The translations under genes and the position numbers were made by a program. Below are positions 13,844 to 15,749 of a DNA stretch of 64,000 nt, one piece after another. The stretch comes from Eledone cirrhosa (Eukaryota), in assembly GCA_964016885.1 (NCBI GenBank), contig OZ024748.1:43152001-43216000 (forward strand). Direction: 5' to 3'. Under the pieces are notes generated by a model. The model did no database searches and was not told the DNA's origin. It worked only from the letters and a program-made list of their open reading frames with translations. Each line of letters begins with the position of its first letter. Within the stretch, counting starts at the first letter, position 1.

Positions 13844-14002
13844 ATTGGAATAAATGCTCTGAAATAGCGATATATATGTGAATATAGACATAGAATATTC
13901 GAAAATATTCTGTATGTTTATAATAAACATTTTGAAGACCTAATCGCTATAGAATAGAATACGTCACGTATTACAATTAGATTCTCGATAAAAGCAAGGG
14001 AA

Positions 14003-14045
14003 GTAATCTACGCGTTTCATTCTTGTTAGAAATCATCAGGACTAC
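14003..14045 (-). ncRNA. Type I hammerhead ribozyme (also at 14313-14355 and 14623-14665, minus strand)
   Basis: Reverse complement of the motif at 14955-14997. Confidence 0.85.
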
Positions 14046-14954
14046 ATATCCAGTGCTTTTATCGAGAATGACACAGCTAGAGACTTATAGAATACTTAGC
14101 TGTGTACAGGAACTGGTTTGAAAGAGCGGTTGCCGGTCCGGCAGAAATTAGAAATTGGAATAAATGCTCTGAAATAGCGATATATATGTGAATATAGACA
14201 TAGAATATTCGAAAATATTCTGTATGTTTATAATAAACATTTTGAAGACCTAATCGCTATAGAATAGAATACGTCACGTATTACAATTAGATTCTCGATA
14301 AAAGCAAGGGAAGTAATCTACGCGTTTCATTCTTGTTAGAAATCATCAGGACTACATATCCAGTGCTTTTATCGAGAATGACACAGCTAGAGACTTATAG
14401 AATACTTAGCTGTGTACAGGAACTGGTTTGAAAGAGCGGTTGCTGGTCCGGCAGAAATTAGAAATTGGAATAAATGCTCTGAAATAGCGATATATATGTG
14501 AATATAGACATAGAATATTCGAAAATATTCTGCATGTTTATAATAAACATTTTGAAGACCTAATCGCTATAGAATAGAATACGTCACGTATTACAATTAG
14601 ATTCTCGATAAAAGCAAGGGAAGTAATCTACGCGTTTCATTCTTGTTAGAAATCATCAGGACTACATATCCAGTGCTTTTATCGAGAATGACACAGCTAG
14701 AGACTTATAGAATACTTAGCTGTGTACAGGAACTGGTTTGAAAGAGCGGTTGCGGTCCGGCAGAAATTAGAAATTGGAATAAATGCTCTGAAATAGCGAT
14801 ATATATGTGAATATAGACATAGAATATTCAATTTCTTTATTCCAATTTCTAATTTCTGCCGGACCGGCAACCGCTCTTTCAAACCAGTTCCTGTACACAG
14901 CTAAGTATTCTATAAGTCTCTAGCTGTGTCATTCTCGATAAAAGCACTGGATAT

Positions 14955-14997
14955 GTAGTCCTGATGATTTCTAACAAGAATGAAACGCGTAGATTAC
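14955..14997 (+). ncRNA. Type I hammerhead ribozyme (also at 15265-15307 and 15574-15616)
   Basis: GTAGTC-CTGATGA-T-TTCT(AACA)AGAA-T-GAAA-CGCG-TA^GATTAC. Stem I GTAGTC/GATTAC, intact core, palindromic stem III ACGCGT, GUA cleavage triplet. Confidence 0.87.
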
Positions 14998-15749
14998 TTC
15001 CCTTGCTTTTATCGAGAATCTAATTGTAATACGTGACGTATTCTATTCTATAGCGATTAGGTCTTCAAAATGTTTATTATAAACATACAGAATATTTTCG
15101 AATATTCTATGTCTATATTCACATATATATCGCTATTTCAGAGCATTTATTCCAATTTCTAATTTCTGCCGGACCGGCAACCGCTCTTTCAAACCAGTTC
15201 CTGTACACAGCTAAGTATTCTATAAGTCTCTAGCTGTGTCATTCTCGATAAAAGCACTGGATATGTAGTCCTGATGATTTCTAACAAGAATGAAACGCGT
15301 AGATTACTTCCCTTGCTTTTATCGAGAATCTAATTGTAATACGTGACGTATTCTATTCTATAGCGATTAGGTCTTCAAAATGTTTATTATAAACATACAG
15401 AATATTTTCGAATATTCTATGTCTATATTCACATATATATCGCTATTTCAGAGCATTTATTCCAATTTCTAATTTCTGCCGGACCGCAACCGCTCTTTCA
15501 AACCAGTTCCTGTACACAGCTAAGTATTCTATAAGTCTCTAGCTGTGTCATTCTCGATAAAAGCACTGGATATGTAGTCCTGATGATTTCTAACAAGAAT
15601 GAAACGCGTAGATTACTTCCCTTGCTTTTATCGAGAATCTAATTGTAATACGTGACGTATTCTATTCTATAGCGATTAGGTCTTCAAAATGTTTATTATA
15701 AACATACAGAATATTTTCGAATATTCTATGTCTATATTCACATATATAT

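What the first reader, a model, noticed from the sequence alone, without database searches (positions are those of the whole stretch)
13844..15749. Tandem 310-bp hammerhead units (retrozyme-like) in a giant head-to-head palindrome
Seen: six near-identical non-coding units, each with one complete type I hammerhead (CUGAUGA/GAAA core, GUA site, palindromic ACGCGT stem III). Three units point left and three point right, and both 3' ends run into (TA)n. Established: tandem non-autonomous repeats of a few hundred nt carrying minimal type I hammerheads (metazoan retrozymes) self-cleave, often as dimers through a palindromic stem III, and yield monomeric or circular RNAs thought to be mobilised by Penelope-like RTs. 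Inference: this is a very young multimeric insertion copied from a 310-nt circular RNA, with a PLE-style 5' inversion. It may be an undescribed cephalopod retrozyme family.
Basis: partly seen in the sequence, partly recalled or inferred. Interest (0 to 1): 0.9.

Follow-up and report, generated by a model that had tools for sequence, protein, structure and literature searches.

The report
Palindromic hammerhead retrozyme with Penelope footprint
A 310-base non-coding repeat carrying a hammerhead-ribozyme motif sits at about 1,400 places in a mollusc genome (probably a cephalopod), mostly as two back-to-back arrays with two fixed, unequal ends in TA repeats, and this pattern was likely left by a Penelope-type reverse transcriptase copying one RNA, probably a circle, from both ends of a DNA break.

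Summary
Observation confirmed: six 310-nt units, each with a type I hammerhead motif, lie head-to-head in (TA)n. The palindrome is the family's normal form, not an artefact. The genome holds at least 13,698 units at roughly 1,400 loci. Of 97 loci examined, 86 are two-armed and 11 single-armed. All 86 pair one arm ending at unit position ~139 with one ending at 163-172. This 26-33-nt offset matches the Penelope-like-element (PLE) 'tail'. Both arms carry the same haplotype in 64 of 66 loci (shuffled mean 10.8). Arm 5' ends are spread over the unit, not piled at the ribozyme cut (3 of 170). Arm lengths do not fit cDNA fold-back. Best model (0.6): a PLE enzyme primes both ends of a (TA)n break on one RNA, probably the monomer circle, rolls out two arms, and joins them centrally. 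Two loci instead point to a linear multimer template. Cleavage, expression and circles are untested, and no partner PLE was found. Non-LTR retrozymes and their proposed PLE dependence are published; the strict two-end, single-template anatomy was not found in the papers searched. This scan noted similar repeats in other genomes.

The parts
13844..14829 (-). Left arm, 986 nt (3.2 units); 3' end at 13844 is the B ('tailed') end, unit position 165 counted from the ribozyme cut; 5' end at unit position 109
14830..14835 (.). Central junction: 6-nt insert resembling nearby unit sequence, where the two 5' ends meet
14836..15749 (+). Right arm, 914 nt (2.9 units); 5' end at unit position 155; 3' end at 15749 is the A end, unit position 139
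14992..15301 (+). One cut-to-cut monomer, 310 nt, 34% GC; the predicted circular RNA and the reference for unit numbering
14926..15019 (+). Type I hammerhead with extended helix I (core 14961-14991, predicted cut after 14991); repeated with cores at 15271-15301 and 15580-15610
14009..14659 (-). Three minus-strand hammerhead cores (14659-14629, 14349-14319, 14039-14009)
15050..15137 (+). Long hairpin just 5' of the A site; its inner 8-bp stem is kept in sister families; candidate PLE-protein recognition element (inferred)
15131..15156 (+). The 26-nt 'tail' (unit 140-165) between the A and B ends, shown in an internal unit
12403..13843 (.). Left (TA)n target array; the 340 nt next to the insert are G-interrupted on the + strand like the right flank (12 G/6 C against 17 G/3 C), so the near flanks continue rather than mirror each other
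15750..25780 (.). Right (TA)n-rich array

Best explanation
This is one of about 1,400 copies of a young, non-coding hammerhead-bearing repeat (a non-LTR retrozyme), and its back-to-back arrays with two fixed unequal ends were likely made at insertion by a Penelope-type enzyme copying one RNA, probably the 310-nt circle, from both ends of a cut in (TA)n. Steps: (1) inferred: arrays are transcribed, neighbouring hammerheads pair through the palindromic helix III, cut out monomers, and these are circularised. (2) Inferred from published PLE biochemistry: a PLE protein dimer binds the hairpin/tail region and cuts both strands of a (TA)n target. (3) Shown as a pattern: one arm ends at site A (~139) and the other at site B (163-172) in every two-armed locus; inferred to be two reverse-transcription starts on the same RNA. 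(4) Inferred: each enzyme rolls round the circle for a random length (median about 1.1 kb). (5) Inferred: the two cDNA 3' ends join through short matches or small templated inserts and prime each other's second strand. Some long arms expand further after insertion.
For: End pairing: 63 of 63 divergent end pairs on the first 217 Mb of C1 are A+B; 86 of 86 two-armed loci among 97 examined are A+B. Genome-wide end counts are balanced: 1,291 A against 1,112 + 309 B (a few are internal variants). Target: 164 of 179 arm ends run into at least 6 alternating A/T. One template: same haplotype in both arms in 64 of 66 loci against 10.8 shuffled, maximum 21; 16 of 31 locus-fixed variants were seen in only one sampled locus. 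Rolling: 156 of 170 arms exceed one unit; 5' ends are near uniform over the unit (p 0.13), with 3 of 170 within 5 nt of the cut site, about 5.5 expected. Independent arms: 9 of 84 loci lie in the length zone that fold-back forbids, 7.7 expected if lengths are independent. Centre: overlap of at least 1 nt in 58 of 84, small insert in 17. Selection pattern: locus-fixed variants sit at tolerant ribozyme positions (12 of 31, against 11 of 109 minor variants, p 5e-4), none in the 12 core bases. Control: an RT/GIY-YIG-coding PLE family of this genome also has two discrete 3' ends in (TA)n, 17 short and 11 with a ~60-nt tail. Literature: PMC11167929 (PLE protein cuts and extends both strands, two internal starts equal the tail, predicted dimer); PMC8557442 (inverted 5'-truncated copy, tail at one end).
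Against: No autonomous PLE sharing sequence with the unit was found in 110 PLE loci. L073 carries two units of one haplotype and then another haplotype in the same order in both arms, and L060 has a first-unit variant in register in both arms; a monomer circle cannot give either. In L111 the arms disagree over four units. Frangieh et al. found ribozyme cleavage unnecessary in vitro and initiation without homology, whereas site A here is AU-alternating and its C is overwritten by T in 51 of 92 A ends. The absence of core variants is not significant (about 1.2 expected). The central overlaps have no null model and BLAST end extension inflates them. The tail (26-33 nt) is slightly shorter than the 30-40 nt quoted for PLEs. 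The monomer's minimum-energy fold does not show the active hammerhead. 11 of 97 loci are single-armed.
Confidence: 0.6

Rival explanations
1. Same PLE two-end priming, but the usual template is a long uncleaved linear multimer transcript of an existing array; monomers or circles intervene only occasionally.
For: L073 and L060 share variants in register from the 3' ends. PMC11167929 found unprocessed RNA to be the dominant substrate in vitro. Helix III is weak, so cleavage may be slow.
Against: In-register sharing appears in only 2 loci: 6 real variants among 74 tested, 2 further hits being majority alleles of L111. Variants fixed in every unit of both arms (for example 24 of 24 units in L078) need a one-unit bottleneck somewhere. 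There is no pile-up of 5' ends at the cut site.
Confidence: 0.23
2. One cDNA folds back or self-primes and the second arm is a DNA copy of the first (the self-priming idea of Arkhipova 2013 for PLE palindromes).
For: It would explain the identical haplotypes and L073/L060. A few centres are near-perfect hairpins (L060, L088, L091). PMC3846280 argues for self-priming.
Against: A is longer in 35 loci and B in 45 of 85. 9 of 84 loci fall in the forbidden length zone, as many as independence predicts (7.7, range 3-13). The hairpin centres coincide with the unit's own internal inverted repeat.
Confidence: 0.07
3. A short pLTR-like piece inserts once and tandem arrays grow later by unequal exchange (the local-amplification scenario of Li et al. 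2026).
For: Periodic variant blocks in the 14-kb arm of L063 and in the second element of L034 show post-insertion expansion.
Against: Both inverted arms are multimeric (134 of 170 arms exceed two units) with one shared haplotype, while new single-unit variants remain unhomogenised (154 in 268 kb).
Confidence: 0.08
4. The palindrome is an assembly or library artefact.
For: It lies in long (TA)n, and the window's own junction is not bridged by a listed read.
Against: Arms are unequal, the two ends are always of different fixed types, and flanks are not mirrored (1 of 84 identical over 60 nt). Short-read contigs of run X2 show five other antisense-to-sense joints and (TA)n loose ends at site A (X2 may be the assembly's own sample).
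Confidence: 0.02

Closest known systems
Metazoan non-LTR retrozymes (Cervera & de la Pena 2020, PMC7229834; passages and Discussion read, supplement not readable)
   Same: Tandem ~300-nt low-GC units, one canonical type I hammerhead each. Helix III is like axolotl HHR_Amex1 and the U.U at the helix II base is like HHR_Amex2. PLE mobilisation from circles is proposed there.
   Different: The main text has no match for 'head-to-head', 'opposite orientation', 'microsatellite', 'target site' or 'cephalopod'. Here inverted arrays, two fixed ends and (TA)n targets are the rule. Cleavage and circles were shown there and are not shown here.
Li, Clavereau & Pollet 2026 preprint (10.64898/2026.07.22.740005; parts 1-3 of 5 read, abstract to Discussion)
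   Same: Retrozymes as non-autonomous PLE derivatives, co-occurring with PLEs.
   Different: They show pLTR homology in Xenopus, which I could not show here, and suggest local amplification of arrays. They sample no mollusc, and the parts read do not describe junctions or inversions.
Penelope-like elements: inverted 5'-truncated copy plus tail (Craig 2021 PMC8557442 and Arkhipova 2013 PMC3846280, passages read; Frangieh 2024 PMC11167929, main text read)
   Same: Head-to-head arrangement, tail on one end, microsatellite targets, two internal start sites.
   Different: No RT/EN reading frame, both arms are multimers of a short unit, and the tail is 26-33 nt. In these papers the tail is 'often' or 'optionally' present; here every two-armed locus has one tailed and one untailed end.
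L1 twin priming (recalled, no call)
   Same: Both target ends prime on one RNA and the cDNAs join by microhomology, giving a 5' inversion.
   Different: In L1 the first primer uses the poly(A) end and the second site varies; here both sites are internal and fixed, and the template repeats.

Membership tests
Non-LTR retrozyme | Tandem units of 150-450 nt, GC below 45% | tested here: met
   310 nt, 34% GC
Non-LTR retrozyme | Type I hammerhead in every unit | tested here: met
   6 of 6 units by motif and pairing; Rfam HH9 only 19.2 bits, below threshold
Non-LTR retrozyme | Non-coding | tested here: met
   No frame of 120 aa or more inside the units; only microsatellite frames touch the ends
Non-LTR retrozyme | Dispersed multi-copy family | tested here: met
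   13,698 exact matches to a 38-mer, control 0; 1,291 A ends
Non-LTR retrozyme | Self-cleavage of the transcript | not testable with these tools
   Only a cofold prediction of the dimer
Non-LTR retrozyme | Expressed as linear and circular monomer RNA | not testable with these tools
   Needs northern blot or RNase R RT-PCR
Non-LTR retrozyme | No primer-binding site or polypurine tract | not tested
   Not searched
PLE-mobilised insertion | Inverted 5'-truncated copy, head-to-head | tested here: met
   86 of 97 loci
PLE-mobilised insertion | Tail of about 30-40 nt at one end only | tested here: met
   86 of 86 two-armed loci are A+B; offset mostly 26 or 31 nt
PLE-mobilised insertion | (TA)n target bias | tested here: met
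   164 of 179 arm ends
PLE-mobilised insertion | Homology to the pLTR of an autonomous PLE | tested here: inconclusive
   None in 110 PLE loci, a small sample of the families present
PLE-mobilised insertion | Target-site duplication | tested here: inconclusive
   Candidates in 14 of 84 loci cannot be told from microsatellite periodicity
Autonomous PLE | RT plus GIY-YIG reading frame | tested here: not met
Minimal PLE hammerhead (Cervera 2014) | Helix II of 7-8 bp, short helix I, no helix III needed | tested here: not met
   4-bp helix II, 6-bp helix I, 1-bp helix III with tetraloop

The most novel reading that the evidence does not exclude
These ~1,400 palindromes record the PLE integration reaction itself: a dimeric telomerase-like reverse transcriptase primes both ends of a (TA)n break at two ruler-spaced sites on a single circular RNA, rolls out two multimers, and lets them prime each other's second strand. 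This would explain the inverted repeat and one-sided tail of Penelope-like elements in general, and would show that retrozyme 'satellites' are born as arrays.
Probability: 0.45. Interest if true: 0.82.

Novelty: new variant of a known kind. Interest (0 to 1): 0.62.

Why it matters
How PLEs build inverted repeats with a one-sided tail, and whether retrozyme arrays come from reverse transcription of RNA circles, are both described as open in the papers read. This family gives over a thousand near-identical insertion records whose haplotypes act as barcodes. They indicate one template per insertion, two fixed starts and independent arm lengths. It also offers a 310-nt substrate with mapped start sites for in vitro tests of two-ended, rolling-circle priming by a telomerase-like enzyme. 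The element class and its proposed PLE dependence are already published, which caps the surprise.

Tried and rejected
DNA search of the own genome with the whole unit returned nothing because common words are skipped; exact patterns were used instead. Rfam miRNA hits are hairpin and microsatellite noise. Partner search: a Hydra-type PLE with intact 781-aa copies (30 loci), the Neptune-like family of window 34637 (30 loci) and 50 GIY-YIG loci share no convincing sequence with the unit; the one strong match (L244) is a sister retrozyme inserted in the (TA)n behind a PLE. The 2.2-kb spacing at L163 was a Tc1-like insertion, not a PLE frame. The PLE RT beside L033 lies across an assembly gap. Horizontal transfer: 20 runs under 17 organism labels in 16 studies hold the unit. 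Of 8 runs laid, X2 has 610 contigs at summed depth mostly 1e5-3.6e5, six others have one 280-340-nt contig at depth 5-34, and raw run X24 has 0 reads in 1.9 Gb, which is no test by itself. I read this as low-level carry-over of a very abundant repeat, not transfer; it is not proven. Expression: no RNA holder listed. Target-site duplications were inconclusive. Literature searches that found no description of this anatomy or of cephalopod retrozymes. The squid genome paper only counts 235 hammerhead hits (PMC6962438, passages); PMC6431247 passages added nothing on this anatomy. The supplement of PMC7229834 could not be read and bioRxiv supplements are closed; either could list cephalopod repeats or inverted arrays.

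Full report
Observation. The window holds two inverted arrays of a 310-nt unit, 13844-14829 on the minus strand and 14836-15749 on the plus strand, inside long (TA)n. Each of the six units has a CUGAUGA...GAAA...GUA core with a 6-bp helix I extended by 15 further pairs, a 4-bp helix II with a U.U at its base, and a 1-bp helix III capped by a palindromic tetraloop. By the definitions in PMC4209133 (passages) this is the canonical metazoan type I hammerhead, not the minimal PLE type. Rfam gives only a sub-threshold HH9 match (19.2 bits, E 0.49). Folded alone, one motif does not take the active shape; two copies cofold with an intermolecular helix III (-69.9 against 2 x -31.9 kcal/mol). This is a prediction. 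The only protein hit for a neighbouring laminin-G-like exon is Octopus bimaculoides at 62%, so the host is a mollusc, probably a cephalopod.

Family. Exact patterns give 4,177 matches for the window's hammerhead haplotype and 13,698 for a 38-mer across the cut site, with 0 in both controls. At 9.6 units per sampled locus this is about 1,400 loci and at least 4 Mb. I examined 97 loci, the window and 96 on C1: those flagged, most paired ends to 217 Mb, the first 24 of 74 apparently unpaired ends, and 3 loci that the end patterns had missed. Two of them (L057) look like one locus duplicated across a gap. Minor variants run at 5.8e-4 per base (154 in 267,683), so the family is very young.

Two fixed ends. 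Numbering from the predicted cut, arm 3' ends fall at 139 (type A: 90, plus one each at 138 and 147) or at 165-172 (type B: 68 at 165, 15 at 170, 4 others) among 179 arms. Genome-wide there are 1,291 A and 1,112 + 309 B pattern matches, a few of them internal variants. Among 200 ends on the first 217 Mb of C1 (two internal variants dropped), all 63 adjacent divergent pairs are A+B. Of the 97 loci, 86 are two-armed and all 86 are head-to-head A+B; 11 are single-armed, one of them cut by a gap and at least one with a tiny second arm. 164 of 179 ends run into at least six alternating A/T. This is the PLE signature: an inverted 5'-truncated copy and a tail at one end (PMC8557442; PMC3846280). PMC11167929 showed that a purified PLE protein cuts and extends both target strands and starts at two internal RNA sites that delimit the tail. 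As an internal control, the RT/GIY-YIG-coding family of window 34637 has two discrete ends in (TA)n, 17 short and 11 with a 58-62-nt tail.

One template per insertion. Both arms share the haplotype in 64 of 66 loci with arms of 400 nt or more (1,000 shuffles: mean 10.8, maximum 21), and in 58 of 60 loci with a testable non-reference variant. Sixteen of 31 locus-fixed variants occur in just one sampled locus, yet where covered they are in every unit of both arms, for example 24 of 24 in L078 and 22 of 22 in the second element of L034. The sample is about 7% of loci, so these variants may recur elsewhere, but a one-unit bottleneck is still needed to fix them. 156 of 170 arms exceed one unit. Their 5' ends are near uniform over the unit (p 0.13) and 3 of 170 lie within 5 nt of the cut, so templates do not appear to end at the ribozyme site. 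This fits a circle or a long uncleaved multimer.

Against a pure circle model. In L073 both arms read two units of one haplotype and then another; in L060 a variant sits in the first unit of both arms, 26 nt apart in distance from the ends. These need a heterogeneous linear (or multimeric circular) template, or conversion between arms. They are 6 of 74 minor variants tested for in-register sharing. In L111 four outer units of one arm lack a variant that the other arm carries throughout. L063 and the second element of L034 show periodic variant blocks, that is later local expansion.

Independent arms and the centre. A is longer in 35 loci and B in 45 of 85. cDNA fold-back forbids loci where neither arm can be a copy of the other; 9 of 84 lie there, against 7.7 (3-13) if lengths are independent. 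Later gain or loss of units could blur this test. The centre shows an overlap of 1 nt or more in 58 of 84, a blunt join in 8, a 1-30-nt insert in 17, and in L036 a 272-nt piece of a repeat clustered on C25. No null was computed for the overlaps.

Constraint. Locus-fixed variants cluster at tolerant ribozyme positions (N7, 10.1, loop 2, wobble-compatible helix I sites, one-base inserts near the cut): 12 of 31 against 11 of 109 minor variants (p 5e-4). None hits the 12 core bases, which is not significant alone. They avoid unit 128-205 (2 of 31 against 40 of 109, p 7e-4; interval chosen after seeing the data). At least two older sister families (about 70-82% identical in matched parts of unit 59-235; 2,508 matches to a shared pattern) carry different hammerheads but the same hairpin-and-tail module. 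The inner hairpin is paired in all 63 cells, with changes on both sides at 2 of 8 pairs (8 related sequences, structure taken from the window). 16 of 24 listed B-type ends of these families fall 24-33 nt past site A although the tail sequence differs, which suggests a ruler (inferred).

What was not found. No autonomous partner appeared among 110 PLE loci. Cleavage, expression and circles are untested. The window's own junction was not bridged in run X2, although that run shows five other antisense-to-sense joints and (TA)n at site A. The unit's presence at depth 5-34 in runs of other organisms is best read as carry-over.

Verdict. A real, young non-LTR retrozyme family with a strict PLE insertion footprint. 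Retrozymes, circles and PLE mobilisation are published proposals (PMC7229834; 10.64898/2026.07.22.740005). The one-A-one-B rule, single-template arms and independent arm lengths were not found; unread supplements may bear on this. The L1 twin-priming comparison is recalled. Confidence: PLE-mobilised retrozyme about 0.9; full two-end rolling-circle model 0.6. Interest 0.62.

Noticed in passing
window 31081-33424 (-); L137, L146-L148, L151: Hydra-type PLE (RWK and DKT motifs, C-terminal GIY-YIG-like domain) with many near-identical copies that keep a 781-aa open frame; probably active; ends in (TA)n.
   Followed up: partly
window 34637-36760 (+): Neptune-like PLE with its own hammerhead-like motif near 36570; family members have two discrete 3' ends about 60 nt apart; frames over 1,000 aa exist elsewhere in the genome.
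   Followed up: partly
window 57708-59234 (-), 44267-45436 (+), 51249-52464 (-): Further PLE RT/GIY-YIG copies; a hammerhead-like motif lies at 57341 (-) behind the first.
   Followed up: no
window 34030-34207 (+); L102, L113, L185, L211, L288: A different short (TA)n-inserted element whose hammerhead has almost the same helix II as this family but a long helix III, so it may work as a monomer.
   Followed up: no
window 33880-33985: Short perfect head-to-head palindrome between (TA)n runs, possibly a small PLE-mobilised element.
   Followed up: no
L163, L066:3431-3740, L088:3317-3659: Sister ~320-nt family whose hammerhead core reads U3/A8 in place of C3/G8, a compensatory swap; also head-to-head with A and B ends.
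   Followed up: partly
L213-L242: Third sister family with a standard core, mostly 1-2 units per arm, about 90% identity among copies.
   Followed up: partly
L036:2899-3170: 272-nt GC-rich piece captured at the centre of a palindrome; 96-98% identical to a repeat with at least 39 copies clustered on C25 19-24 Mb; identity unknown.
   Followed up: partly
window 40090 (+) and 40619 (+): Two more hammerhead-like motifs of other families.
   Followed up: no
window 10408-11004 (+): Exon of a laminin-G/TSPN-like host gene about 3 kb from the insertion.
   Followed up: partly
window 62017-63602: Young 63-bp (18.6 copies), 52-bp and 29-bp tandem arrays.
   Followed up: no
runs X1, X3, X4, X10, X15, X18: The unit assembles as a single 280-340-nt contig at depth 5-34 in runs labelled as other organisms; probably carry-over, horizontal transfer not excluded.
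   Followed up: partly
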